Positions 54,032 through 64,000 of a stretch of 64,000 bases of DNA are shown piece after piece (the first letter of the stretch is position 1; every line of letters starts with the position of its first letter). The position numbers and the translations under genes were made by a program. The notes beneath the pieces were generated by a model that was not told the origin of the DNA, did no database searches, and saw only the letters and a program-made list of their open reading frames with translations. The stretch spans positions 5,891 through 69,890 of the forward strand of contig CACIBE010000008.1 of assembly GCA_902584805.1 (NCBI GenBank), in the 5' to 3' direction. Source of the DNA: an uncultured Alphaproteobacteria bacterium (lineage in GTDB: Bacteria; Pseudomonadota; Alphaproteobacteria; HIMB59; GCA-002718135).

Positions 54032-54826
54032 ATGGAAATAAATAAAATTACGAATTTATTGAATCTGGAGCATGTTAAGTTTTTAATATCTATCTTTAAA
54101 GAAAATAATATTGAAATTCGATTAGTAGGAGGTTGTATACGAGATGCTCTTCTTGAAAGAGAAATCAAAGATATTGATACAGCGACAACTTTGGAGCCTG
54201 AAGATGTTTTGTCATTACTAAAAGAGAACAATATTGAGTATGATGATTTTGCTATTCAATATGGATCTATAATTGCTTATCCTCATAATCGAAAAATACA
54301 AATTACAACTTTACGTGAAGATGTTAATCAAATGGGAAGACATACAAATGTAATTTACACCAACAGCTGGAAAAAAGATTCAGCCAGAAGAGATTTTACT
54401 TTCAATGCTTTATATGTGGGAAACAATAATAAACTCCATGATTATTACAATGGCCAATCAGATTTAAATGAAAGTAAAATTTGTTTTATTGGTGAAATAG
54501 AGGATAGAATAAAAGAAGATTACTTAAGAATCTATCGATACTTTAGGTTTAGAGGTTTATTTAATTTACCTAAAACATCTTTAAGTGATCAAAAGATTGT
54601 AGAAAAATATATTCACGAATCTTTGGCAGTGTTGACCAACGATGTAATAAGACAAGAAATATTAAAAATGTTTAATATGTCTTTTCCATTAAATTGTTTT
54701 TACATATCTCATCAAACGTTACAAAAATTCAAATGGGTTGAAATAGTGCAAGAGCATTTTATACGAACAAAATACGACCTTGGATTAAATAAATGTCTGA
54801 ATAAGATTGATAATTTAATAAATTAG
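54032..54826 (+). CDS. tRNA nucleotidyltransferase / poly(A) polymerase-family protein, short form
   Basis: 264 aa. Head-domain motifs LVGGCIRDALL, DIDTAT and RRDFTFNAL are present, but the protein is much shorter than the ~400-aa class II CCA-adding enzymes. Confidence 0.7.
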   Translation: MEINKITNLLNLEHVKFLISIFKENNIEIRLVGGCIRDALLEREIKDIDTATTLEPEDVLSLLKENNIEYDDFAIQYGSIIAYPHNRKIQITTLREDVNQMGRHTNVIYTNSWKKDSARRDFTFNALYVGNNNKLHDYYNGQSDLNESKICFIGEIEDRIKEDYLRIYRYFRFRGLFNLPKTSLSDQKIVEKYIHESLAVLTNDVIRQEILKMFNMSFPLNCFYISHQTLQKFKWVEIVQEHFIRTKYDLGLNKCLNKIDNLIN

Positions 54827-55236
54827 TTTTTTAGTTTACAATTTTCGCACAAACCAAATATTTCTAAATTATGTTTTTTATAATTGAAGTTATTTTTTTC
54901 TGCTTGTTTTGAAAAATAAGAAAATAAATTATTTCCAGTTAGCTCAGTAACACTATCACAGTTTTCACATATCAAAAAAGATGTAGAAGTTTTTGCATTA
55001 CATCCTTCATGTTTACAAGCAACGTAAGAATTTCTACTTTCTATTTTGTGAACTTTTCCAATTTCAATCAATTTATCGAGTGCCCTGTAAACTTGCAGAG
55101 GAGATTTTATTCCCATTTTTTGTATATCATAAAGAATTGTGTACGCCTTCATCGGTTCAGAAGAGTTTTCTAAAACTCCAAGAACTGTTTTTTGATTCTT
55201 AGTTAAATTATCCGATGCCAATCCCATATATCTCAA
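54823..55236 (-). CDS. zur: Fur-family transcriptional regulator, zinc uptake regulator-like
   Basis: 137 aa with a winged-helix N-terminal domain and two CxxC pairs (CENCDS, CENCK). It is the last gene of the znuC-znuB operon. Confidence 0.75.
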   Translation of the reverse strand: MRYMGLASDNLTKNQKTVLGVLENSSEPMKAYTILYDIQKMGIKSPLQVYRALDKLIEIGKVHKIESRNSYVACKHEGCNAKTSTSFLICENCDSVTELTGNNLFSYFSKQAEKNNFNYKKHNLEIFGLCENCKLKN

Positions 55237-55250
55237 TTACCAAATTGTTT

Positions 55251-56054
55251 TCATTTTTGCAACTTACCTCTCAACTCTAGTGGAATAAGAGAAATGATAA
55301 ATAATATTATCGCTATAACAATAATTGATGGTCCCGAAGAGGTATTCAATTCCAAAGAAGTAAATAAGCCAATTGTAACAGATAAAATACCAATTAATAT
55401 GGCTACAAATACCATTTGTTTTGGATTGTTAGTGATATTTCTCGATGCCGCTGCCGGTATTATTAGTAATCCTGTAATTAAAAGAGTCCCAATCATTTTT
55501 ATAGACAATGCAATAACTCCAGCTAGTAGTAGGGTAAAGATCATATTATATATGTTCGGTTTCATTCCTTCTGCTAAAGCTAGATCATAATTAACTGTAG
55601 CTGAAAATAATGATTTCCAAATAAAATATAAAATTCCTATAATTATAAAACCACCAATCCATACTAGAGCGATGTCTTCTACAGTTACTGCTAAGATATC
55701 ACCAAAAAGTAATCCCATAATATCAAAACGAATACTCGATAAAAAACCCATTAAAACCAAACCAATCGCAAGAGTAGAGTGAGCTAATAATCCAAGTAAT
55801 GAATCACCAGCCAATCTAGTCCTCTTTTGAAGATTGAGAAGAAGTAGAGCAATGACTGCCGATATTATAAACACAGAAAAGGCAATATTTAAACTGAAGG
55901 CATAGGCTAAAGTTACTCCTAGTAAGGCAGAGTGTGCTAAGGTATCACCAAAATAAGATAATCGTCTCCAAATTACTAAGCAACCTAGTGGCCCTGTAAT
56001 TATTGCAATACCGATACCTGCAACTAACGCTCTAGTAAAAAAATCATCAAACAT
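55251..56054 (-). CDS. znuB: zinc ABC transporter permease
   Basis: 267 aa, ABC-3 family permease (SYFGDTLAHSALLG). Confidence 0.9.
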   Translation of the reverse strand: MFDDFFTRALVAGIGIAIITGPLGCLVIWRRLSYFGDTLAHSALLGVTLAYAFSLNIAFSVFIISAVIALLLLNLQKRTRLAGDSLLGLLAHSTLAIGLVLMGFLSSIRFDIMGLLFGDILAVTVEDIALVWIGGFIIIGILYFIWKSLFSATVNYDLALAEGMKPNIYNMIFTLLLAGVIALSIKMIGTLLITGLLIIPAAASRNITNNPKQMVFVAILIGILSVTIGLFTSLELNTSSGPSIIVIAIILFIISLIPLELRGKLQK

Positions 56055-56797
56055 TAACTAGACACACTTCCGTCAGAATTATGTGTGTGATCATGATCGT
56101 GCTGATAATATGTCAACGTTTTTGATCTATGTTCACCAAATAATTCTATATAGGCTTTATCTTTTATAACTGTACTTGGTTTTCCTGAACAACAGATATG
56201 CCCATTTAAACAAACTACATGATCTGTAGCAGACATAACAAAATGCAAGTCATGGGAGACTAATAAAATTCCACAATTTAGGTTTGCAGAAATATTTTTG
56301 ATAATATTATAAAGATCAATTTCCCCATTAAAATCAACTCCTTGAACGGGTTCATCTAAGACTAGTAATTCTGGTTTTTTTGCGATAGCTCTTGCTAGAA
56401 GAACACGTTGAAATTCTCCACCAGATAGACCATGAATTTGTTCCTTGAAAAGTTTTTCTACTCCAGTTTGATTTAAAGATTCACTAACTTCATTATTGCT
56501 GAGATTATTGGTTAATCGCATGAAATCTACAACTCGTAATGGCATTGTCCAATCGATATTAATTTTCTGAGGAACATATGCGATTTTATCTGTGTACCTT
56601 TTCATTGAACCTTCATCAGGTTCAAGAATACTTAGCACCATTTTAGCTGTTGTTGTCTTTCCAGAACCATTAGGTCCTATTAGCGTAACTATTTGACCAC
56701 GCCTTACTTCAAGAGATACACCTTTTATCAACCATTTTGGAGACTTATAAACACCTGCGTTTTCCAAATTTACTAATAAATTATTTTTACTACTCAT
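56054..56797 (-). CDS. znuC: zinc ABC transporter ATP-binding protein
   Basis: 247 aa with Walker A GPNGSGKTT, LSGGEFQR and a His-rich C-terminal tail (HDHDHTH). Confidence 0.9.
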   Translation of the reverse strand: MSSKNNLLVNLENAGVYKSPKWLIKGVSLEVRRGQIVTLIGPNGSGKTTTAKMVLSILEPDEGSMKRYTDKIAYVPQKINIDWTMPLRVVDFMRLTNNLSNNEVSESLNQTGVEKLFKEQIHGLSGGEFQRVLLARAIAKKPELLVLDEPVQGVDFNGEIDLYNIIKNISANLNCGILLVSHDLHFVMSATDHVVCLNGHICCSGKPSTVIKDKAYIELFGEHRSKTLTYYQHDHDHTHNSDGSVSS

Positions 56798-56814: not shown

Positions 56815-56837
56815 AAAATGTAATATTATAACATTAC
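56815..56837. promoter_or_regulatory. Zur box in the znuC/znuA divergent promoter region
   Basis: AAAATGTAATATTATAACATTAC contains the 18-bp palindrome GTAATATTA|TAACATTAC (16/18 symmetric). It matches the proteobacterial Zur consensus GAAATGTTATANTATAACATTTC (quoted from memory) at about 19 of 22 defined positions. It lies 18 nt from the znuC ATG and 38 nt from the znuA ATG. Confidence 0.7.
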
Positions 56838-56874: not shown

Positions 56875-57885
56875 ATGAAACAAACGAATTTTTTTCTACA
56901 TATATTTAAGATTATTTTGTTTTCAGGAATTCTTGTTGCAACTGCATCTGCAAGAGCAGAGTTAAAGGTTGTTACTACAATTAAACCACTACATTCATTA
57001 ATTTCAAACGTTATGGATGGAATAGGTGAGCCTGGACTCATAATCGATGGAAGTATATCACCACACAGTTTTACAATGAAACCTTCTCATGCGAAAATGC
57101 TTGAAGAAGCAGATGTCATTTTTTGGATTGGAGAGGGTATTGAAACATCAATGGAAGAACCTCTAGACACAATTGCAAAAGATGCAGAAGTAATTGAATT
57201 TATGGAACTTGATTCAATTGCTAAATTAAAATTTAGAGAAGAATCAATTTTTGGTGACCATGACGATCACGACGACCACGATGACCACGATGATCATGAC
57301 GACCACGATGATCACGATGACCATGATGATCATGACGACCACGATGATCATGACGACCACGATGACCACGGCCATGCACACGGTGAATTTGATGCTCACA
57401 TTTGGCTAGATCCAATGAATGCTAAAGAAATGGTTCATGAAATAGCTCATGAGTTAGGTGATTTAGATCCTGCCAATAAAGAGAAATATGAAGCAAATGC
57501 TGAAGCAACAATTAAAGCTTTAGATCAGCTTATTAGTGATGTTGGTACAGATATTAATTCTGATGCAAAATTTGTTGTCTTCCATGACGCCTACCAATAC
57601 TTTGAAGAAAGATTTGGTGTAAGAGCTGCAGGAGCTTTAACATTGAATACTGATGTTTTACCTGGTGCGAAGCAAATAGCTGATATTCAGGATGTTATTA
57701 AGGATAAGGGAATAAAATGTATTTTCTCTGAACCTCAATTTAATCCAAAGATTATTAAAACAATAGCTGAGGACATGAATATCAAAACAGGAGTTTTTGA
57801 TCCTTTAGGTGCTAACATTGATGCTAGTAAGTCACTTTACTTTACGTTGATTAGTAATCTCGGGGACGAGCTTAAAGGCTGTTAA
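56875..57885 (+). CDS. znuA: periplasmic zinc-binding protein ZnuA with an expanded Asp/His-rich loop
   Basis: 336 aa with a signal peptide, the cluster A-I SBP fold (VVTTIKPLHSL, HIWLDP, HDAYQYF) and a DH(DDH)12 GHAHGE insert. Confidence 0.9.
   Translation: MKQTNFFLHIFKIILFSGILVATASARAELKVVTTIKPLHSLISNVMDGIGEPGLIIDGSISPHSFTMKPSHAKMLEEADVIFWIGEGIETSMEEPLDTIAKDAEVIEFMELDSIAKLKFREESIFGDHDDHDDHDDHDDHDDHDDHDDHDDHDDHDDHDDHDDHGHAHGEFDAHIWLDPMNAKEMVHEIAHELGDLDPANKEKYEANAEATIKALDQLISDVGTDINSDAKFVVFHDAYQYFEERFGVRAAGALTLNTDVLPGAKQIADIQDVIKDKGIKCIFSEPQFNPKIIKTIAEDMNIKTGVFDPLGANIDASKSLYFTLISNLGDELKGC
57256..57369 (+). repeat. in-frame 9-nt (DDH) tandem repeat, about 12.7 units, with an 18-nt higher-order unit
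   Basis: Codon-by-codon reading gives DH(DDH)12. The 18-mer gatgatcatgacgaccac occurs three times (57289, 57325, 57343), the last two in tandem. Confidence 0.95.
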
Positions 57886-57901
57886 ATTTTAATATTTAAA
57901 T

Positions 57902-57930
57902 AAATTCCACCTTGTATTAAGGTGGAATTT
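57902..57930 (+). terminator. perfect 12-bp hairpin after znuA (terminator or attenuator before the COG0523 operon)
   Basis: AAATTCCACCTT-gtatt-AAGGTGGAATTT followed by ATAAAA. The U-tract is short and partly inside the stem. Confidence 0.55.
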
Positions 57931-57956
57931 ATAAAACTAATTATAAGGAAATTGAT

Positions 57957-58928
57957 ATGGAAAATACTTCTCAGGTTCCAGTTACTGTTTTAACAGGGTT
58001 TCTTGGAGCTGGAAAAACAACTCTTTTAAATCGAATATTAACTGAACAGCATGGACGGAAATATGCCGTTATAGTTAATGAATTTGGTGAACAAGGTATC
58101 GACAATGATCTTGTTGTTGATGCTGATGAAGAAGTATTTGAAATGAACAACGGGTGCATTTGTTGCACTGTTAGAGGTGATTTAATTAGAATTCTAAGTG
58201 GCTTAATGAAACGTGCTGATAAGCTTGATGCAATTATTGTTGAGACAACTGGTTTAGCAGATCCAGCCCCAGTTGCTCAGACATTTTTTGTTGATCAAGA
58301 TGTTGCTGATAGAACAAAATTAGATGCAATTGTTACAGTTGCCGATGCTGTTCATCTAAGTTCTCAATTAGTCGATCATCATGAAGCAGAAGAACAAATT
58401 GCTTTTGCTGATGTAATTTTGTTAAATAAAGTTGAACTTGTTGGAGATAATGACATTGTAAAAGTTAATGATCGTATTAGAAAAATTAATCCTTTTGCAA
58501 AGATTATTAAAACAACACGTTGTGATGCACCTCTTGATGAAATCGTAGGCTTAAATGCATTTAGTCTAGATAGAGTATTAGATATTGAACCTGACTTTCT
58601 TGAATCAGAACATGATCATGAACATGATGATGATGTTACTAGTCTATCCTTTGTATCTGATACACCATTAGATATGGATAAGTTTCAAGATTGGTTTGGA
58701 AATTTACTCAGGACTAAGGGTCAGGATATTCTTCGATCAAAAGGCATTTTGAATTTTAAAGGTGAAGATGAGCGATATGTGTTTCAAGGAGTACACATGC
58801 TCATGGATGCTTCTCCAATGGGGCCATGGCCAAAAGGAAAAGATAGAAGTTCTCGAGTAGTTTTTATTGGTCGTGACCTTGATAATATGAACCTTAAGGA
58901 AGGCTTTGAAAATTGTAAATCAGCATGA
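57957..58928 (+). CDS. COG0523-family (CobW/ZigA/YeiR-like) metallochaperone GTPase
   Basis: 323 aa with Walker A GFLGAGKTT, the metal-binding motif GCICCT, a His/Asp/Glu-rich linker (ESEHDHEHDDD) and the CobW C-terminal domain. Confidence 0.85.
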   Translation: MENTSQVPVTVLTGFLGAGKTTLLNRILTEQHGRKYAVIVNEFGEQGIDNDLVVDADEEVFEMNNGCICCTVRGDLIRILSGLMKRADKLDAIIVETTGLADPAPVAQTFFVDQDVADRTKLDAIVTVADAVHLSSQLVDHHEAEEQIAFADVILLNKVELVGDNDIVKVNDRIRKINPFAKIIKTTRCDAPLDEIVGLNAFSLDRVLDIEPDFLESEHDHEHDDDVTSLSFVSDTPLDMDKFQDWFGNLLRTKGQDILRSKGILNFKGEDERYVFQGVHMLMDASPMGPWPKGKDRSSRVVFIGRDLDNMNLKEGFENCKSA

Positions 58929-59962
58929 ATGCTGATCTAGAAACACTTCAAAAATCAAATAAAACTGAACTTGAAAGAAGAGGTTCAATTTTTAATATTG
59001 GAGCCCCAGCTACAGAAGCGGTTACAATTCGTGATCAAATAGCGGTAGGATTTGGAGACGGTACTGTAAGATTTTTTCAATCTGGATCTGATCCTAAAAC
59101 TGTTAAAGCACATAAGGGTGTAGTGTTGAGTATGACAAATTATGAAGATCATGTGTTAACGGGAGGAGAAGATGGACGTTTTCTAAAAATATCATCTGAT
59201 GGAAATATTGATGAAATTTTTAATTTTGGTTCAAAGTGGGTTGACTGTGTAGCTTCCCACAAAGATACTAAAGTTTGTTCATCAGGAAAGACTGTTTATA
59301 TTTGGACAAAAAACAAAGATAAACCAAAAACTTTAGAGCATCAAAGTACTGTTGCTGGATTAGCATTTGATAATAAAGGCAAGCGTCTTGCGGTCTCAAG
59401 ATACGGTGGAGTAACAGTGTGGAAACTTAATAATAATAAATGGACAGCATCAAATTTTACATGGAAAGGATCGCATGGAACTGTAACGTTTAGCCCAGAT
59501 ACAAAATATATTGTAACTGCAATGCAAGAAAATCAAATTCATGGTTGGCGCATAAACGACAAAGCTGATTTAGCAATGAGAGGTTATCCATCAAAAATTA
59601 AAAGTTTTACTTGGGTTGGTGATACACCGTATTTGGTAACATCTGGATCCAGTGATGCAGTTTGCTGGCCATTTGATGGTAAAGAAGGACCAATGGGGAG
59701 AAAGCCAATTGTTGTTGCAAACGGTGGTAAAGAACTTGCAACATTTGTTAAAGCACTAAATGGAGAAAAAGCTGTTTTCACCGGTTTTACAGATGGGTCA
59801 GTTTTATTAGCAGAAATTGATGAAAGTAAAAAACCAATTATGATTAGAAGTTCAACAGGTGCAGAAGTTTCAACAATAGCGATATCTAGTGATAATTCAC
59901 AAATATTAATTGGGGATATGAAAGGTTCTATTCTTTTATCATCTTTATGGGCAGACAATTAA
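58925..59962 (+). CDS. WD40-like beta-propeller protein
   Basis: 345 aa with 7-8 blade-like repeats (GDGTVRFF, GEDGRFLKI, GKTVYIW, YGGVTVWKL, ENQIHGWRI, SSDAVCWPF, TDGSVLLAEI, DMKGSILLSSL). ATGA overlap with the COG0523 gene. Confidence 0.7.
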   Translation: MNADLETLQKSNKTELERRGSIFNIGAPATEAVTIRDQIAVGFGDGTVRFFQSGSDPKTVKAHKGVVLSMTNYEDHVLTGGEDGRFLKISSDGNIDEIFNFGSKWVDCVASHKDTKVCSSGKTVYIWTKNKDKPKTLEHQSTVAGLAFDNKGKRLAVSRYGGVTVWKLNNNKWTASNFTWKGSHGTVTFSPDTKYIVTAMQENQIHGWRINDKADLAMRGYPSKIKSFTWVGDTPYLVTSGSSDAVCWPFDGKEGPMGRKPIVVANGGKELATFVKALNGEKAVFTGFTDGSVLLAEIDESKKPIMIRSSTGAEVSTIAISSDNSQILIGDMKGSILLSSLWADN

Positions 59963-59972
59963 AGGAGAAAAT

Positions 59973-60227
59973 ATGTTTAATCGTAAAACTCAAAATGTTG
60001 AAAAAATAAGAAATCTTAAACATTTAATTTCTAAGAAATATAAATTACCAGAAAATACTATAATAAGTATTGCTGAGCTTAGTTGTCATGAGCCTGATTG
60101 TCCACCAATCGAAACTGTAATTACTGCAAGAAATGAAGACGGATCAATGAAAAATTGGCGAGTTGCAAAATCAATAGAAGAAATAGAGGAGTCAGATATT
60201 AATAATCTAACAAACCACACCCATTAG
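59973..60227 (+). CDS. hypothetical 84-aa protein with a CxxxxC motif
   Basis: AGGAG lies 7 nt upstream. Contains SCHEPDCPPIETVI and a C-terminal NHTH. I recognise no family. Confidence 0.5.
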   Translation: MFNRKTQNVEKIRNLKHLISKKYKLPENTIISIAELSCHEPDCPPIETVITARNEDGSMKNWRVAKSIEEIEESDINNLTNHTH

Positions 60228-60248
60228 ATTATTAAATTTAGAATAAAA

Positions 60249-60656
60249 ATGTCAAAAAAACAAAAAGAAATAATATTATCTGTTTGTCTCACATGTACCC
60301 TTAATAAAGCTCAAAATAATAATAAACTTGCAGGAGAAAAACTTGCACAAAAATTAATTAATAAATTTAAAAATACAAAAAATGTAACTTTAAGAGGTGT
60401 AAATTGCATGAGTAATTGTAAACGTTCATGTATTGTATCCTTTACCGCAGAAAATTGTTTTACCTATGTGTTTGGAGATATAGATCCTGAAAATTCTGCT
60501 TATATTGATTCAATAGAGGAACTGCTATTATCCTATAGCAAATCTGATGATGGTTTTTTGAGACGTAGACATAGACCTGAAATATATAGATCTAATATCG
60601 TTGGTAGATTTCCTCCAATAAATAGTAAGTCAGATATTATTATTAATTTAAAATAG
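60249..60656 (+). CDS. DUF1636-family putative metal-binding protein
   Basis: 135 aa. CLTC...VNCMSNCKRSC...RPEIYRSNIVGRFPP fits the DUF1636 pattern (thioredoxin-like ferredoxin fold, usually found beside cobW). Recognition is from memory. Confidence 0.65.
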   Translation: MSKKQKEIILSVCLTCTLNKAQNNNKLAGEKLAQKLINKFKNTKNVTLRGVNCMSNCKRSCIVSFTAENCFTYVFGDIDPENSAYIDSIEELLLSYSKSDDGFLRRRHRPEIYRSNIVGRFPPINSKSDIIINLK

Positions 60657-60723
60657 TAAAATTTTAAAAAAAATTAAATTATAATTATTTATTTCTGAAT
60701 TTTGTTTAATTTAGAATGTATTA

Positions 60724-60807
60724 TTAACAGCAATCTCCACCTTCACAAGCGCAACAACAGCTGCAGCTGCAACCACACTTTGGTGGGTTTGGATTTTGAT
60801 TTTTCAT
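60724..60807 (-). CDS. candidate 27-aa Cys-rich peptide (metallothionein-like), missing from the >=60-aa ORF track
   Basis: Manual translation gives MKNQNPNPPKCGCSCSCCCACEGGDCC followed by a double TAA TAA. There are 9 Cys in the last 17 residues. AGGT lies 6 nt upstream of the ATG. The ORF forms a GC-rich island within an AT-rich 189-nt spacer. Confidence 0.45.
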   Translation of the reverse strand: MKNQNPNPPKCGCSCSCCCACEGGDCC

Positions 60808-60845
60808 AATCATACCTATATATTTTATAATAATTTAAAATACAA

Positions 60846-61703
60846 ATGAGAAAAGCATTAGAAATTAAAGAGTGTATGAAGACTTTCGAGGGTGACGGGA
60901 TACCTGTAACGAGAGCTTTCCCTGTCCCTGGAATGAGAGAAAATGATCCATTTCTTCTTTTTGATCATTTCGGCCCAATTAATTATGAGCCAGGAGGTGC
61001 AACTGGTGTACCAGCCCATCCTCATTGTGGATTTGAGGCAATTACTTATATGCTTGGTGGTGAAGTAGAGCATAGAGATTCATTTGGAGGACAAGCAGAA
61101 ATTGAAACTGGTGATGTACAATGGATGACAACTGGATCAGGTTTAATCCACTCTGAATTAGTAACAGAAAAATTTAAGAAGAGTGGTGGTATCATGCAAG
61201 GATTACAAATTTGGGTAAACCTTCCACAAAAAAATAAAAAAGTGAAACCTTGGTACCAACATATTAAAAGAAACACTATTCCAACAGTATCTGAAAATGC
61301 AAATATAGAAATTAAAGTTCTTGTGGGTGAAATAAATGGAACCAAATCCAAAGTTCAAACATATTCACCTGTATCAATATTTGATATTCAATTTTCAAAA
61401 CCAGATAAGACAAAGTTTAATGTTGATAAAGAACAAAATCTTATGATCTATATTATCGATGGTCAATTACAATTTAACGAGGATGATAAAATCGCTAATA
61501 AAGGTGATATGATTTACTTTGATCAGTCAAGTGATGAGATTCAACTTACATCGATATCAGAAAAAGGATCCTACCTAGTTTTAGCAGGTAAGCCGCTTAA
61601 AGAACCTGTAGCACGTTATGGTCCTTTTGTGGCAAATTCTGAAGGAGAAATCAAGCAAGCAATGATGGACTATCAAGAAGGAAAGATGGGAAGCTTAGCT
61701 TAA
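60846..61703 (+). CDS. pirin-family bicupin protein
   Basis: 285 aa with the metal ligand motif HPHCGFEAITYMLGGEVEHRDS, WVNLP and the pirin C-terminal cupin. Confidence 0.9.
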   Translation: MRKALEIKECMKTFEGDGIPVTRAFPVPGMRENDPFLLFDHFGPINYEPGGATGVPAHPHCGFEAITYMLGGEVEHRDSFGGQAEIETGDVQWMTTGSGLIHSELVTEKFKKSGGIMQGLQIWVNLPQKNKKVKPWYQHIKRNTIPTVSENANIEIKVLVGEINGTKSKVQTYSPVSIFDIQFSKPDKTKFNVDKEQNLMIYIIDGQLQFNEDDKIANKGDMIYFDQSSDEIQLTSISEKGSYLVLAGKPLKEPVARYGPFVANSEGEIKQAMMDYQEGKMGSLA

Positions 61704-62146
61704 GCTAATTGACGTAACATTTCACCAGCTACAATAGCAACTGAACTACTAAGATTAATCGATCTAGGCCCCTTTATCATTGGTATTGTTAATCTTTCAT
61801 CGACAGAGCTATGAACAAAATCAGGTGCTCCTGCACTTTCTCTGCCAAATAAAATAATATCATTTGATTGAAATTTATAATCGAAATAACTTTTTTTACT
61901 TTTCGTTGTTAGAAGAATGAGTCGATATGAGTTATCTTTTGACCACTCATAAAATTTTTCCCAACTTAAATGTTTTTTTAATTCTAGATAATCATAGTAA
62001 TCCATTGATGCTCTTTTTAATCTCTTATCATCAATCACAAAGCCAGCTGGCTCTATTATATCTACTGGTATTCCAAGACAGGCACCTAGTCTAAATATGT
62101 TTCCTGCATTCTGTGGTATGTCGGGTTCAAATAGAGCAATTCTCAT
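61700..62146 (-). CDS. trmL: tRNA (cytidine(34)-2'-O)-methyltransferase (SpoU/TrmL family)
   Basis: 148 aa with MRIALFEPDIPQNAGNIFR, the single-domain SPOUT architecture and LNLSSSVAI. Confidence 0.85.
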   Translation of the reverse strand: MRIALFEPDIPQNAGNIFRLGACLGIPVDIIEPAGFVIDDKRLKRASMDYYDYLELKKHLSWEKFYEWSKDNSYRLILLTTKSKKSYFDYKFQSNDIILFGRESAGAPDFVHSSVDERLTIPMIKGPRSINLSSSVAIVAGEMLRQLA

Positions 62147-62770: not shown

Positions 62771-64000
62771 ATGGATAAGAATAGAAAAGTACATCAGTTT
62801 AAAAACCCTGTCCTTAATTGGATAGAGTTTCGTTTACCAATTATTTCTTATTTCAAAAAAGAATACGGCGATTATCCGATGCCTAAAAATTGTAATTATT
62901 TTTGGAGTTTTGGTGCATTGGCAACAATTACACTTGTTACAATGATAGTAAGCGGAATTTTTCTTGCCATGAATTACACACCACATACTGATATGGCATT
63001 TGATAGTGTTGAAAGAATAATGCGAGATGTCAATTATGGTTGGTTAATGCGATATATCCATTCCAATGGTGCAGCCTTTTTCTTCATCATAGTTTACATT
63101 CATATAGTAAGAGCAATGTATTTTGGTTCTTACAAATATCCAAGAGAGCTTAATTGGATTTTAGGTGTATTCATATTTTTATTAATGATGGCAACTTCTT
63201 TTCTCGGTTACACATTACCGTGGGGACAAATGTCTTATTGGGGAGCTACAGTTATAACAAATTTATTTAGTGCAATTCCATTTATTGGTGAGGGATTAAA
63301 GACATGGCTTCTTGGTGATTACAATGTTGGAAATGCTACTTTAAACCGTTTCTTTGCTCTTCATTATGTTTTACCATTTGTTATTTTTGGTGTTGTAGGT
63401 TTACATGTTGCTGCAGTCCATGTTCATGGTTCAAATAATCCTGATGGGATTGATATTAAAACTAACAATGACTCAGTAAACTTTTTTCCATATATGTTAA
63501 TTAAAGATACAGTAGCTATGTGTGCTTTTGGTGTTGCTATTTCTGCAGTAATATTCTTTGGACCAAATCTTATGGCTGAAGTTGATAATTATATTCCAGC
63601 AGATCCACTTGTTACTCCAGCTCACATTGTTCCAAACTGGTATCTTGCACCTTTTTATGCAATTTTAAGAGCAGTACCTGATAAATTAGGAGGGGTTCTC
63701 CTAATGTTTGGTGCGATAGTAATTCTCTTTGTTTTACCTTGGCTTGATAGATCAAAAGTGAGAAGCTGTAATTATAGACCAATATATAAGTGGTTTATGA
63801 TGGGCTTTTTTGTTAACTTTTTTGCATTAGGCTACGTTGGTATGCTCCCTGCTGAAGGTTTATACCTTTTAATTGCTAGAGTAGGTTTACTTTACTACTT
63901 TGGCTTTTTCTTTATCATTACACCTTTTGTTGGTTGGATAGAGAAGCCAAGTAAGCTACCGCTCAGTATTAGTGATGTTTATGCTAAAAATATAGCTCCT
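62771..64000 (+). CDS. petB: cytochrome b (3' end outside the window; absent from the ORF track)
   Basis: Manual translation from ATG 62771 gives MDKNRKVHQFKNPVLNWIEFRLP...NYFWSFGAL...NYGWLMRYIHSNGAAFFFIIVYIHIVRAMYFGSY. The frame checks as in phase at both ends, up to nt 64000 (410 codons). I did not scan every internal codon. Confidence 0.95.
   Translation, partial: MDKNRKVHQFKNPVLNWIEFRLPIISYFKKEYGDYPMPKNCNYFWSFGALATITLVTMIVSGIFLAMNYTPHTDMAFDSVERIMRDVNYGWLMRYIHSNGAAFFFIIVYIHIVRAMYFGSYKYPRELNWILGVFIFLLMMATSFLGYTLPWGQMSYWGATVITNLFSAIPFIGEGLKTWLLGDYNVGNATLNRFFALHYVLPFVIFGVVGLHVAAVHVHGSNNPDGIDIKTNNDSVNFFPYMLIKDTVAMCAFGVAISAVIFFGPNLMAEVDNYIPADPLVTPAHIVPNWYLAPFYAILRAVPDKLGGVLLMFGAIVILFVLPWLDRSKVRSCNYRPIYKWFMMGFFVNFFALGYVGMLPAEGLYLLIARVGLLYYFGFFFIITPFVGWIEKPSKLPLSISDVYAKNIAP

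What the first reader, a model, noticed from the sequence alone, without database searches (positions are those of the whole stretch)
60724..60807. ORF missing from the >=60-aa track encodes a 27-aa, 9-Cys metallothionein-like peptide at the edge of the zinc cluster
The 189-nt spacer between the DUF1636 gene and pirin is one of the longest stretches left unoccupied by the >=60-aa ORF track in this very compact window. Its centre is conspicuously GC-rich. On the minus strand it reads ATG AAA AAT CAA AAT CCA AAC CCA CCA AAG TGT GGT TGC AGC TGC AGC TGT TGT TGC GCT TGT GAA GGT GGA GAT TGC TGT TAA TAA. This gives MKNQNPNPPKCGCSCSCCCACEGGDCC, with 9 Cys in 17 C-terminal residues arranged as CxCxCxCCCxC...CC and no aromatic residues. 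AGGT lies 6 nt upstream of the ATG, and there is a TTGTAT-17 nt-TATATA promoter-like match at 60845-60817 on the minus strand. The size and Cys spacing recall the smallest fungal Cu-metallothioneins (Neurospora, about 25 aa with 7 Cys). They differ from the known bacterial families (SmtA/BmtA about 55 aa, MymT about 53 aa). The position, directly after a Zur/ZnuABC/COG0523/DUF1636 block, fits a metal-buffering role. If the peptide is real, it would be an unusually small bacterial metallothionein class. An alternative reading is a Cys-rich RiPP-like or redox peptide.
Basis: partly seen in the sequence, partly recalled or inferred. Interest (0 to 1): 0.72.

Follow-up and report, generated by a model that had tools for sequence, protein, structure and literature searches.

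The report
Tiny cysteine-rich peptide gene beside znuA
A real but unannotated 27-codon gene in some SAR11 (Pelagibacteraceae) ocean bacteria encodes a peptide that is one-third cysteine and always sits tail-to-tail with the zinc-uptake (znuA) operon, so it is probably a new, very small metallothionein-like metal-binding peptide, though no metal binding has been shown.

Summary
Window 60724-60807 (-) encodes MKNQNPNPPKCGCSCSCCCACEGGDCC, with 9 Cys in the last 17 residues. 100 composition-matched simulations reached at most 7.

It is a genuine protein-coding gene, not an RNA element. I found 79 copies (44 distinct nucleotide sequences among the 77 pooled) in SAR11-type genomes and marine metagenomes. 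Complete copies are always 27 codons long. The start (ATG/TTG/GTG) and stop (TAA/TAG) sit at fixed positions. Substitutions are mostly synonymous (pN/pS 0.11, against 7.2 for the open antisense frame), and they destroy the GCAGCTGC palindrome in 35 of 44 variants.

The invariant neighbour is neither DUF1636 nor pirin. The gene always converges on the last gene of the Zur-box-controlled znuA operon, whether that is DUF1636, an 84-aa ORF or ZnuA itself. Where znuA is adjacent, the gene has its own intrinsic terminator (-23 kcal/mol).

It is accessory: 4 of 6 distinct ZnuA-anchored loci lack it. It has no Zur box of its own and no convincing sigma-70 promoter.

No homologue exists among 1.84 billion representative proteins, Pfam, NCBIfam or the PDB.

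Best reading: a new metallothionein-like peptide family tied to zinc homeostasis. Function is inferred only.

The parts
60724..60807 (-). 27-codon ORF plus TAA stop (60724-60726), encoding MKNQNPNPPKCGCSCSCCCACEGGDCC
   Evidence: Conserved as exactly 27 codons in 79 copies. pN/pS is 0.11 in this frame, against 0.24 to 7.2 in the other five frames.
60778..60807 (-). N-terminal decapeptide MKNQNPNPPK. Start codon at 60805-60807. Conserved N-P-N-P-P-K motif.
   Evidence: N5, N7, P9 and K10 are present in every copy, although the metagenome search pattern left these codons free. Synonymous codon changes occur: CCA/CCT/CCG, AAT/AAC, AAG/AAA. The start codon is ATG in 71 copies, TTG in 3, GTG in 2 and ATA in 1, always at this same position.
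60727..60777 (-). Cys-rich domain, codons 11-27: CGCSCSCCCACEGGDCC (9 Cys in 17 residues)
   Evidence: All 9 Cys are kept in 21 of 22 loci found through neighbouring genes rather than through the peptide. TGT and TGC alternate at eight of the nine Cys codons; C21 is always TGT. Positions 20 (T/A), 24 (G/E) and 25 (G/D) vary.
60811..60813 (-). Upstream in-frame ATG. Not the conserved start.
   Evidence: This codon reads GTG, ATA, ATT or GAA in close relatives.
60814..60845 (-). The 5' region shared with divergent pirin. Weak candidate promoter implying a very short or absent leader.
   Evidence: It fails the standard sigma-70 scan. A TTG at about -34 to -39 from the start codon recurs in about 9 of 10 mutually unalignable upstream types. 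This is suggestive only.
60657..60723 (-). 3' spacer up to the convergent DUF1636 stop. AT-rich, with no terminator hairpin in this window's variant.
   Evidence: Folding energy is -4.0 kcal/mol with z = +0.6, and no terminator is predicted. In znuA-adjacent relatives the equivalent region, together with codons 22-27, forms a -23.3 kcal/mol hairpin followed by UUUUU.
56875..60656 (+). Context: the znuA operon that the peptide gene converges on. ZnuA 56875-57885, CobW/COG0523 57957-58928, WD40 58925-59962, 84-aa ORF 59973-60227, DUF1636 60249-60656.
   Evidence: Pfam. The peptide is always immediately 3' of, and convergent with, whichever of these genes comes last.
56820..56837 (.). Context: Zur-box-type palindrome GTAATATTATAACATTAC in the znuC-znuA divergent promoter region
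   Evidence: It is conserved, with 0-1 mismatch, upstream of znuA in about 41 of the 77 loci, namely most of those whose sequence extends far enough. No copy with 3 or fewer mismatches lies within 400 nt of the peptide start in any of the 77 loci.
54823..56797 (-). Context: Fur-family regulator (putative Zur) 54823-55236, ZnuB 55251-56054, ZnuC 56054-56797
   Evidence: Pfam families FUR, ABC-3 and ABC_tran.
60846..61703 (+). Context: pirin, transcribed divergently. Not a conserved partner.
   Evidence: MurJ replaces it in 23 loci. Its best promoter-like site (60803-60831, + strand) overlaps the peptide start codon.

Best explanation
Window 60724-60807 (-) is a stand-alone mini-gene of some Pelagibacteraceae (SAR11). 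It encodes a 27-residue cytosolic peptide.

The C-terminal 17 residues carry nine cysteine thiolates in CxC and CC arrays. The proposal is that these wrap a small metal-thiolate cluster. Nine Cys would fit about three Zn(II) or Cd(II) ions, as in the nine-Cys beta-domain of mammalian metallothionein, or 4-6 Cu(I) ions.

The gene is permanently linked to the Zur-controlled high-affinity zinc importer ZnuABC. It most likely acts as a minimal-cost buffer or store for zinc entering through that importer, or for mis-imported Cd or Cu. In other words it would work like a metallothionein.

**Shown**
- The gene is real and under strong purifying selection at the protein level.
- It has a fixed start, a fixed stop and a fixed length.
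- It always lies convergent with the end of the znuA operon.
- In the znuA-adjacent arrangement it has its own intrinsic terminator.
- It belongs to no known protein family.

**Inferred**
- Translation, metal binding, which metal, and the physiological role.
- A possible regulatory route: antisense or convergent read-through from a derepressed znuA operon. The gene has no Zur box of its own, and the hairpin has a U-tract only on the peptide's strand.
For: **Coding**
- There are 79 copies, 44 distinct nucleotide sequences among the 77 pooled, and every complete copy has 27 codons. The stop is TAA (42) or TAG (34) at one fixed position.
- dN/dS is 0.02-0.12 in pairwise comparisons with saturated dS.
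- Pooled pN/pS is 0.11 in this frame, against 7.15 for the antisense frame that remains open.
- Third codon positions account for 25 of 43 variable columns (p = 0.0007). In the unbiased genome-anchored set the figure is 20 of 36 (p = 0.005).
- The peptide is 24/27 identical between the window and L020. In the same pair DUF1636 is 64% identical, WD40 63% and MurJ 69%, and the flanking DNA cannot be aligned.

**Not an RNA element**
- Rfam gives nothing.
- The GCAGCTGC palindrome is present in only 9 of 44 variants.

**Autonomous unit**
- The terminator hairpin folds at -23.3 kcal/mol with z = -4.8 and is followed by UUUUU on the peptide strand in znuA-adjacent loci.

**Zinc link**
- The downstream convergent gene is DUF1636 in 23 loci, the 84-aa ORF in 14 and ZnuA in 39.
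- The Zur box is conserved upstream of znuA.

**Composition**
- The peptide is 33% Cys in a proteome that is 1.0% Cys, and 9 Cys in 17 residues was never reached in 100 simulations.
- It has no aromatic residues and no His.

**Precedent**
- In marine Synechococcus, Zur represses znuABC and activates the metallothionein gene bmtA, which allows zinc 'banking' (PMC9337993).
- znuA is a patchy accessory trait in SAR11, and no storage function has been described for it (PMC4771312).
Against: - There is no experimental evidence of transcription, translation or metal binding.
- No Zur box lies near the gene, and there is no convincing promoter or Shine-Dalgarno sequence.
- The window's own variant lacks the terminator.
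- The gene is dispensable. Four of six distinct ZnuA-anchored loci lack it, and 4 of 77 copies look damaged: L212 has a stop at codon 4, L174 has an ATA start, L035 has lost its last two Cys, and L016 carries C11F.
- A zinc store sitting next to a zinc-starvation operon is not an obvious pairing.
- The strictly conserved N-terminal NPNPPK motif is not expected of a simple metal sponge. It hints at a specific protein partner.
- Cys invariance in the metagenome copies was forced by the search pattern. The unbiased support comes from 22 loci.
- The sequence does not match any metallothionein family.
Confidence: 0.58

Rival explanations
1. It is a small accessory or regulatory protein of the zinc-uptake system rather than a store. 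In this reading the Cys cluster is a zinc-sensing or zinc-handover module. The conserved NPNPPK N-terminus docks onto a partner such as ZnuBC, Zur or a zinc client. The analogy is with small proteins like E. coli MntS, which tune metal transport (own knowledge).
For: - The N-terminal decapeptide is conserved at the amino-acid level with synonymous codon changes, although the search pattern left it unconstrained.
- The gene is invariably linked to the znuA operon across three different gene arrangements.
Against: - Many znuA loci work without it.
- No partner is consistently present apart from the Znu and Zur genes themselves.
- Nine Cys is far more than a sensing site needs.
- There is no experimental hint either way.
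Confidence: 0.15
2. It is a precursor of a ribosomally synthesised, post-translationally modified peptide (RiPP). MKNQNPNPPK would be a short leader and the Cys/Ser/Thr/Gly-rich stretch the core. Possible products are an azol(in)e-, thioether- or methanobactin-like metallophore.
For: The core composition (C, S, T, G) resembles thiopeptide and linear azole peptide cores (own knowledge). The split between a conserved N-terminal stretch and a core is visible.
Against: - No maturase is nearby in any arrangement. The neighbours are ZnuA, the 84-aa ORF or DUF1636 on one side and pirin or MurJ-TrpRS on the other.
- A 10-residue leader is unusually short.
- There is no exporter or immunity gene.
- The genomes are streamlined.
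- The first 10 codons are more variable than the core only at positions 2-4.
Confidence: 0.07
3. It is a thiol-based redox or sulfur peptide rather than a metal store. Possible roles are a sacrificial oxidant or electrophile buffer, a persulfide carrier, a small Fe-S ligand, or a reduced-sulfur reserve. SAR11 depends on exogenous reduced sulfur (own knowledge).
For: The Cys density is extreme in a Cys-poor proteome. In this window the gene sits next to pirin, a cluster member of which JGI names a redox-sensitive bicupin.
Against: - Pirin is not a conserved neighbour. The conserved neighbour is the zinc importer operon.
- No thioredoxin, glutaredoxin or sulfur-metabolism gene is linked to it.
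Confidence: 0.08
4. The conserved feature is a nucleic-acid element, such as a terminator, an operator or an sRNA, and the ORF is incidental.
For: In znuA-adjacent loci the last five codons are also the 5' arm of a strong hairpin. This imposes RNA-level constraint on codons 22-27 and may explain the G25 (GGG) versus D25 (GAT) split.
Against: - The hairpin covers only the 3' end of the ORF. It is absent from the window and from all DUF1636-type and 84-aa-type loci, yet the ORF is intact there.
- Substitutions are overwhelmingly synonymous in this one frame.
- The start, the stop and the length are fixed.
- There is no Rfam match.
Confidence: 0.03

Closest known systems
   Same: Both are tiny single-domain peptides. 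Both begin the Cys region with C-G-C-S, use CxC motifs, lack aromatic residues and His, and have Gly and Ser as spacers.
   Different: - There is no significant sequence similarity. The best local match is 7 residues at E = 0.12 for a single pairwise comparison, and nothing in the PDB matches at E <= 10.
- The SAR11 peptide has 9 Cys, including a CCC triplet and a terminal CC.
- It has a conserved Pro/Asn-rich N-terminal decapeptide.
- It is bacterial, and it is linked to zinc genes rather than copper genes.
Beta-domain of vertebrate metallothionein (9 Cys in about 30 residues, M(II)3Cys9 or Cu(I)6 cluster; own knowledge)
   Same: Both have nine Cys, which suggests a three-metal divalent cluster as a working model.
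   Different: The Cys are packed into half the length with different spacing. There is no homology. The SAR11 peptide stands alone rather than forming half of a two-domain protein.
Bacterial SmtA/BmtA metallothioneins (Pfam Metallothio_Pro; about 55 aa, Zn4Cys9His2 with a zinc-finger-like fold)
   Same: Both are bacterial, cytosolic and Cys-rich, and both have a role in zinc handling. In marine Synechococcus, bmtA is controlled by Zur together with znuABC (PMC9337993), which is the closest functional parallel.
   Different: - There is no Pfam or NCBIfam match.
- The SAR11 peptide is half the size.
- It has no His ligands and no aromatic residues.
- It has no Zur box at its own promoter.
- Unlike bmtA, it is physically linked to znuA.
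MymT, the Cu(I) metallothionein of Mycobacterium tuberculosis (about 53 aa; cited in PMC7387436)
   Same: It is a lineage-restricted small bacterial metallothionein that was overlooked by annotation until it was specifically sought.
   Different: MymT is twice as long, has an unrelated sequence, is copper-inducible and lies in a copper-related context.

Membership tests
Metallothioneins in the broad, composition-based sense | Low molecular mass, very high Cys content in CxC, CC or CxxC motifs, and few or no aromatic residues | tested here: met
   27 aa, 9 Cys (33%), pattern CxCxCxCCCxC-x4-CC, with no F, Y, W or H. The Cys density is beyond chance.
Metallothioneins in the broad, composition-based sense | Binds multiple metal ions in thiolate clusters; high metal content of the native protein | not testable with these tools
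   This needs ESI-MS, UV or CD titration of the peptide, or isolation from cells.
Metallothioneins in the broad, composition-based sense | The protein is actually expressed | not testable with these tools
   Only indirect evidence is available: protein-level purifying selection, a fixed start and stop, and a dedicated terminator in most arrangements.
SmtA/BmtA bacterial metallothioneins (Pfam PF02069 Metallothio_Pro; MT family 14) | Match to the family profile, or to the conserved signature with His ligands and a zinc-finger-like core | tested here: not met
   - No Pfam family at E <= 1 and no NCBIfam family at E <= 10.
- No PDB chain at E <= 10, in a library that should include solved SmtA (own knowledge).
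- The peptide contains no His.
Fungal family-8 Cu-metallothioneins | Sequence homology and the full Cys signature C-G-C-S-x4-C-x-C-x3,4-C-x-C-S-x-C (signature recalled from memory) | tested here: not met
   - The peptide matches only the first part, C-G-C-S-x4-C-x-C-x4-C, and then ends.
- BLASTP against the remembered N. crassa sequence gives E = 0.12 over 7 residues.
- phmmer against the PDB gives nothing.
Any described protein family | Detectable homologue outside this peptide family | tested here: not met
   - An exhaustive phmmer search of 1.84 billion representatives found 8 hits, all the same SAR11 peptide with spurious N-terminal extensions.
- The word-indexed search of 5.8 billion proteins found 9 hits, all from the same family.
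Zur regulon (direct members) | A Zur box overlapping or adjoining the gene's own promoter | tested here: not met
   The local box GTAATNTTATAANATTAC occurs upstream of znuA. It never occurs within 400 nt of the peptide start at 3 or fewer mismatches in any of the 77 loci. Indirect coupling through convergent transcription was not tested.
RiPP precursor peptides | A genomically associated maturation enzyme or a leader-recognition system | tested here: not met
   No such gene lies within the flanks in any arrangement. Whole genomes were not scanned.
Intrinsic terminator or structured RNA as the sole function | Conserved base-pairing with the reading frame free to break | tested here: not met
   The frame is kept in about 75 of 79 copies. 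The palindrome is lost in 35 of 44 variants. The hairpin is present in only one arrangement. There is no Rfam hit.

The most novel reading that the evidence does not exclude
SAR11 cells that carry the high-affinity ZnuABC importer also carry the smallest bacterial metallothionein yet seen. It would be a 27-residue, 9-Cys peptide made from a near-leaderless mini-transcript. Its expression would be set reciprocally to zinc uptake, not by a dedicated excess-zinc sensor but by convergent (antisense) transcription from the Zur-derepressed znuA operon. That would make a two-part uptake-and-buffer module compressed to fit a streamlined genome, and a hidden contributor to the Zn, Cd and Cu quotas of the ocean's most abundant heterotroph.
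Probability: 0.2. Interest if true: 0.82.

Novelty: new variant of a known kind. Interest (0 to 1): 0.64.

Why it matters
**Ocean chemistry.** SAR11 is the most abundant heterotroph in the ocean. Its znuA locus is a patchy, niche-defining trait, and nothing has been described for SAR11 about what happens to the zinc once it is inside the cell (PMC4771312). A gene-encoded thiolate peptide attached to that locus would be the first candidate intracellular metal buffer in this lineage. It would bear on how cellular Zn, Cd and Cu quotas in the surface ocean are modelled.

**Metallothionein biology.** The peptide would define a new, sequence-unrelated bacterial family. At 27 aa it is half the size of SmtA or MymT.

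**Genome annotation.** It is a clean example of a conserved gene that gene callers miss. None of seven exact 27-mer or 29-mer variants tried is held in a collection of 15 billion proteins. The peptide appears there only as 9 mis-extended entries.

**Testability.** The peptide is short enough to synthesise, so the central claim can be tested cheaply.

Tried and rejected
**Searches that found nothing**
- Rfam, with permissive filters on 59500-62000 and at gathering thresholds on the whole window, gave nothing at the locus.
- The terminator scan and folding of the window's own 3' region found no terminator.
- The sigma-70 promoter scan of the window and of 48 distinct upstream sequences found essentially no match.
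- The Zur-box search near the peptide found none in any of the 77 loci. An AATGTTAT half-site overlaps the start codon in one upstream type only. I judged it a chance match because it is not conserved in the other types (reading).
- Pfam, NCBIfam and PDB sequence searches with the peptide gave no hits.
- A literature search for the motif CGCSCSCCC found no paper, and so did a search for small Cys-rich proteins in Pelagibacter.

I worked around this by concatenating two natural variants.
I therefore tightened the pattern for the single metagenome scan.
- The window's exact DUF1636 protein is not on record.

**Comparisons that were weak or unresolved**
- BLASTP against a remembered Neurospora metallothionein sequence was not significant.
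- Aligning peptide-less with peptide-bearing znuA-MurJ spacers showed homologous flanks. Whether the peptide was gained or lost could not be resolved.

**Not attempted**
- Structure prediction. The peptide is below the 30-aa minimum, and a metal-dependent fold would not be modelled meaningfully.
Full report
**1.

It encodes MKNQNPNPPKCGCSCSCCCACEGGDCC, followed by two TAA codons.

- The mechanical ORF list begins two codons earlier, at 60813. That 'MI' is replaced by VI, II or EI in close relatives, so 60807 is the conserved start.
- The GC bump is real: 0.39 against 0.15-0.17 in the flanks.
- The neighbours are a Fur-family regulator, ZnuB and ZnuC on the minus strand. On the plus strand come ZnuA, CobW/COG0523, a WD40 protein, an 84-aa ORF with no family, and DUF1636. 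Then comes the peptide on the minus strand, and then pirin on the plus strand.
- NCBI names the window's exact Rieske protein sequence as Pelagibacteraceae, and members of the CobW and pirin clusters carry the same label. The window is 28.8% GC. The SAR11-family assignment is therefore supported.
- Nine Cys in 17 residues is not a chance product of this composition. 100 Markov-1 simulations of the window gave maxima of 4-7, and long ORFs here contain 1.0% Cys.

**2. It is a protein-coding gene, not an RNA or DNA element**

*Loci found through the neighbour.* I fetched loci through DUF1636, not through the peptide, and obtained 34.
- All 20 SAR11-type loci that extend far enough carry the ORF.
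- This includes L018, where DUF1636 is 85% identical and the peptide is MNSENPNPPKCGCSCSCCCTCEGEGCC.
- It also includes L020 and L021, where DUF1636 is 64% identical and the peptide is MKNENPNPPKCGCSCSCCCTCEGEDCC.
- In those divergent loci the flanking DNA cannot be aligned with the window, yet the peptide stays 21-24/27 identical.
- Nei-Gojobori dN/dS is 0.02-0.12 with saturated dS.

*Metagenome copies.* A metagenome scan for C-G-C-x-C-x-C-C-C-x-C-[EK]-G returned 78 hits. Of these, 58 are this peptide on marine contigs of 28-38% GC. The other 20 are GC-rich low-complexity noise.

*Pooled set of 77 copies (44 distinct nucleotide sequences).*
- Every complete copy has 27 codons.
- The stop is TAA (42) or TAG (34) at the same position.
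- The start is ATG (71), TTG (3), GTG (2) or ATA (1) at the same position.
- Variable columns fall 10, 8 and 25 on codon positions 1, 2 and 3 (p = 0.0007). In the genome-anchored set alone the split is 8, 8 and 20 (p = 0.005).
- Summed over eight divergent pairs, pN/pS is 0.11 in the annotated frame. It is 7.15 in the antisense frame that stays open in most copies, and 0.24 to 3.15 in the other four frames.
- Rfam finds nothing.

*An internal control.* A chance Cys-rich stretch lies in an off-frame of a real gene at 63319-63438. It loses cysteines (C to R or W) even among relatives that are 96-99% identical.

*A caveat on ascertainment.* The metagenome pattern forced Cys at codons 11-21, so Cys invariance in those 58 copies is circular. 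The unbiased evidence has two parts.
- 22 neighbour-anchored loci, of which 21 keep all nine Cys. L016 has C11F.
- Codons 1-10, codons 24-27 and the stop, which the pattern left free.

**3. What it is linked to**

I oriented all 77 loci on the peptide and located the neighbours by tblastn.

| Convergent gene immediately downstream | Loci | Gap to the peptide stop (tblastn match edge) |
|---|---|---|
| DUF1636 | 23 | about 70 nt |
| 84-aa ORF (DUF1636 absent) | 14 | about 27 nt |
| ZnuA itself (whole CobW-to-DUF1636 block absent) | 39 | 41-52 nt in nearly all |

The one remaining locus, L036, ends too close to the peptide to show a downstream neighbour.

On the other side, the divergent gene is pirin in 33 loci and MurJ (followed by TrpRS) in 23.

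The one constant is therefore that the peptide gene sits tail-to-tail with the end of the znuA operon. That operon is preceded by a near-perfect palindrome, GTAATATTATAACATTAC, at window 56820-56837. The palindrome is conserved with 0-1 mismatch in about 41 of the 77 loci, which is most of those that extend far enough. It has the form of a Zur box (own knowledge of Zur operators).

It is not DUF1636.

**4. Signals of an autonomous transcription unit**

*Terminator.*
- Where ZnuA is the neighbour, codons 22-27 (GAA GGT GGA GGG TGT TGT) together with the downstream ATTAACACCC...TTCCACC fold into a two-tier hairpin.
- The hairpin has an energy of -23.3 kcal/mol (z = -4.8; 0 of 200 shuffles fold as well) and is followed by UUUUU. 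This is an intrinsic terminator on the peptide's strand.
- On the znuA strand the same hairpin is followed by UUCACA, so it has no U-tract there.
- The hairpin goes with the G25 (GGG) allele.
- D25 (GAT) alleles, including the window, occur where extra genes separate the peptide from znuA. They have no hairpin (-4.0 kcal/mol, z = +0.6).

*Promoter and ribosome-binding site.*
- At the 5' end the evidence is weak. The standard sigma-70 criteria find almost nothing in 48 distinct upstream sequences.
- A TTG at about -34 to -39 from the start codon recurs in roughly 9 of 10 mutually unalignable upstream types. If it is a -35 element, the leader would be only a few nucleotides long or absent.
- No Shine-Dalgarno sequence is conserved.

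*Zur control.* No Zur box with 3 or fewer mismatches lies within 400 nt of the peptide start in any locus. Direct Zur control is therefore not supported.

**5. Distribution**

- The gene is essentially invisible to annotation. None of seven exact 27-mer or 29-mer variants is in a collection of 15 billion proteins.
- Only 9 entries in 5.8 billion proteins, and 8 in an exhaustive phmmer scan of 1.84 billion representatives, contain it. All were called only because a spurious upstream start stretched them to 40 aa or more.
- No other protein of any kind matched.
- DUF1636 loci of the next lineages out (L022-L024, 54-59% identical) are organised differently and lack the peptide.
- I then drew a ZnuA-first sample that was blind to the peptide. 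Two of six distinct loci carry it: L239, flanked by the 84-aa ORF and pirin, and L241, flanked by ZnuA and pirin.
- L235 and L238 (ZnuA-MurJ), L240, and the MarineAlpha5 locus L236/L237 do not carry it. In three of these (L235, L238, L240) znuA is followed by a plain hairpin, AAATTCCACCTTTT..AAAAGGTGGAATTT. L236/L237 has only a 59-nt gap.
- Aligning a peptide-less spacer with a peptide-bearing znuA-MurJ spacer shows homologous flanks and a replaced centre. The direction of the change, gain or loss, is unresolved.
- Four of the 77 copies look damaged: L212 has a stop at codon 4, L174 has an ATA start, L035 has a 3' deletion that removes the last two Cys, and L016 has C11F plus E22K.
- Overall, this is an accessory gene within an accessory locus. 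It is strongly constrained where it is kept. Hogle et al. reported znuA itself in about half of SAR11 genomes, with a Fur-family gene always alongside, and mention no storage protein (PMC4771312).

**6. How it most likely works**

*Shown.* It is a real gene for a 27-residue, 33%-Cys peptide with no signal sequence, permanently attached to the zinc-importer operon.

*Inferred.*
- The nine thiolates in CxC and CC arrays bind soft metal ions as a small cluster. Nine Cys matches the M(II)3Cys9 beta-domain of vertebrate metallothionein (own knowledge).
- The peptide would buffer or bank zinc delivered by ZnuABC, or trap Cd or Cu that enters with it.
- The best precedent is marine Synechococcus. There a single Zur represses znuABC and activates the metallothionein gene bmtA, which allows a 43-fold swing in zinc quota (PMC9337993).
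- SAR11 has no Zur box at the peptide gene. Coupling, if it exists, may come from geometry. When Zur releases the znuA operon, transcription runs head-on into the peptide gene, and in the znuA-adjacent arrangement no U-tract stops it on that strand. Zinc repletion would remove this interference. This is a hypothesis only.
- The strictly conserved NPNPPK N-terminus is not explained by a pure metal-sponge model. It keeps open a rival in which the peptide docks on a partner.

*My estimates.*

| Reading | Probability |
|---|---|
| Genuine protein-coding gene | about 0.93 |
| Metallothionein-like metal binding tied to zinc homeostasis | about 0.58 |
| Accessory or regulatory partner of the Znu-Zur system | about 0.15 |
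| Redox or sulfur peptide | about 0.08 |
| RiPP precursor | about 0.07 |
| Nucleic-acid element only | about 0.03 |

**7. Comparison with what is known**

- By composition it meets the classical definition of a metallothionein.
- By sequence it belongs to no metallothionein family. There is no Pfam or NCBIfam hit and no PDB chain at E <= 10.
- The bacterial metallothioneins whose function has been investigated are SmtA, MymT and the Pseudomonas MT of that study (PMC7387436). SmtA and MymT are about twice as long and unrelated in sequence to this peptide (sizes from own knowledge).
- I therefore file it as working like a metallothionein, but as a new family rather than a member of any existing one. 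That makes it a new variant of a known kind.
- Function remains untested, which is why the interest score is moderate to high rather than high.

Noticed in passing
window 59973-60227 (+): An 84-aa ORF with the motif CHEPDCPP has no Pfam or NCBIfam family. It is nevertheless conserved and always follows CobW-WD40, both in SAR11 and in the differently organised loci L022-L024. It looks like an uncharacterised partner of the COG0523 and WD40 pair.
   Followed up: partly
window 56875-57885 (+); L018 45-1637; L020 537-1634: The His/Asp-rich loop of ZnuA is a length-variable (HDD)n repeat. The ORF is 336 aa in the window, 365 aa in L020 and 530 aa in L018. This suggests rapid expansion and contraction of the metal-capturing loop.
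   Followed up: no
window 60803-60831 (+): The best sigma-70-like promoter match for pirin (TTCATA-17-TATAAT, 10 of 12) overlaps the peptide's start codon on the opposite strand. In this arrangement the two divergent genes would share or compete for the same 40 nt.
   Followed up: no
L035 6001-6144 (SAG GCA_902525035.1): This genome lacks DUF1636. The peptide has lost its last two Cys codons at what looks like a deletion junction, and its frame runs on into the antisense of the 84-aa gene (protein P0001). It is either a natural truncation or a single-cell assembly artefact.
   Followed up: partly
L235 4047-4257; L238 4074-4284; L240 3602-3703: Peptide-less znuA loci carry a simple hairpin, AAATTCCACCTTTT..AAAAGGTGGAATTT, after znuA. 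It shares the GGTGGAA/TTCCACC arm with the terminator of peptide-bearing loci, where GAAGGTGGA also encodes E22-G23-G24. The peptide's 3' end and the znuA terminator therefore have a shared history. Whether the peptide was gained or lost is unresolved.
   Followed up: partly
L022 and L023, 1170-7200: In a related low-GC alphaproteobacterial lineage, the genes for a Fur-family regulator, CobW, WD40 and the 84-aa protein are transcribed divergently from DUF1636, an ABC ATPase, a substrate-binding protein and a permease. There DUF1636 heads a different metal or chelate transporter operon, and there is no peptide.
   Followed up: no
L115, about 1274 (-) (IMGVR_UViG_3300016476_000092): A viral contig carries a 32-aa ORF, MDRKCSKCGSDRNMCTCGCKCCCTCPTCNSTK, with 10 Cys. 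It was the only hit from the loose Cys-skeleton scan that looked like a discrete small ORF rather than a repeat.
   Followed up: no
window 63319-63438 (+): An off-frame, 39-aa stop-to-stop stretch with 8 Cys lies inside a real gene. It loses Cys among near-identical relatives, so it is a chance product. I used it as a negative control.
   Followed up: yes
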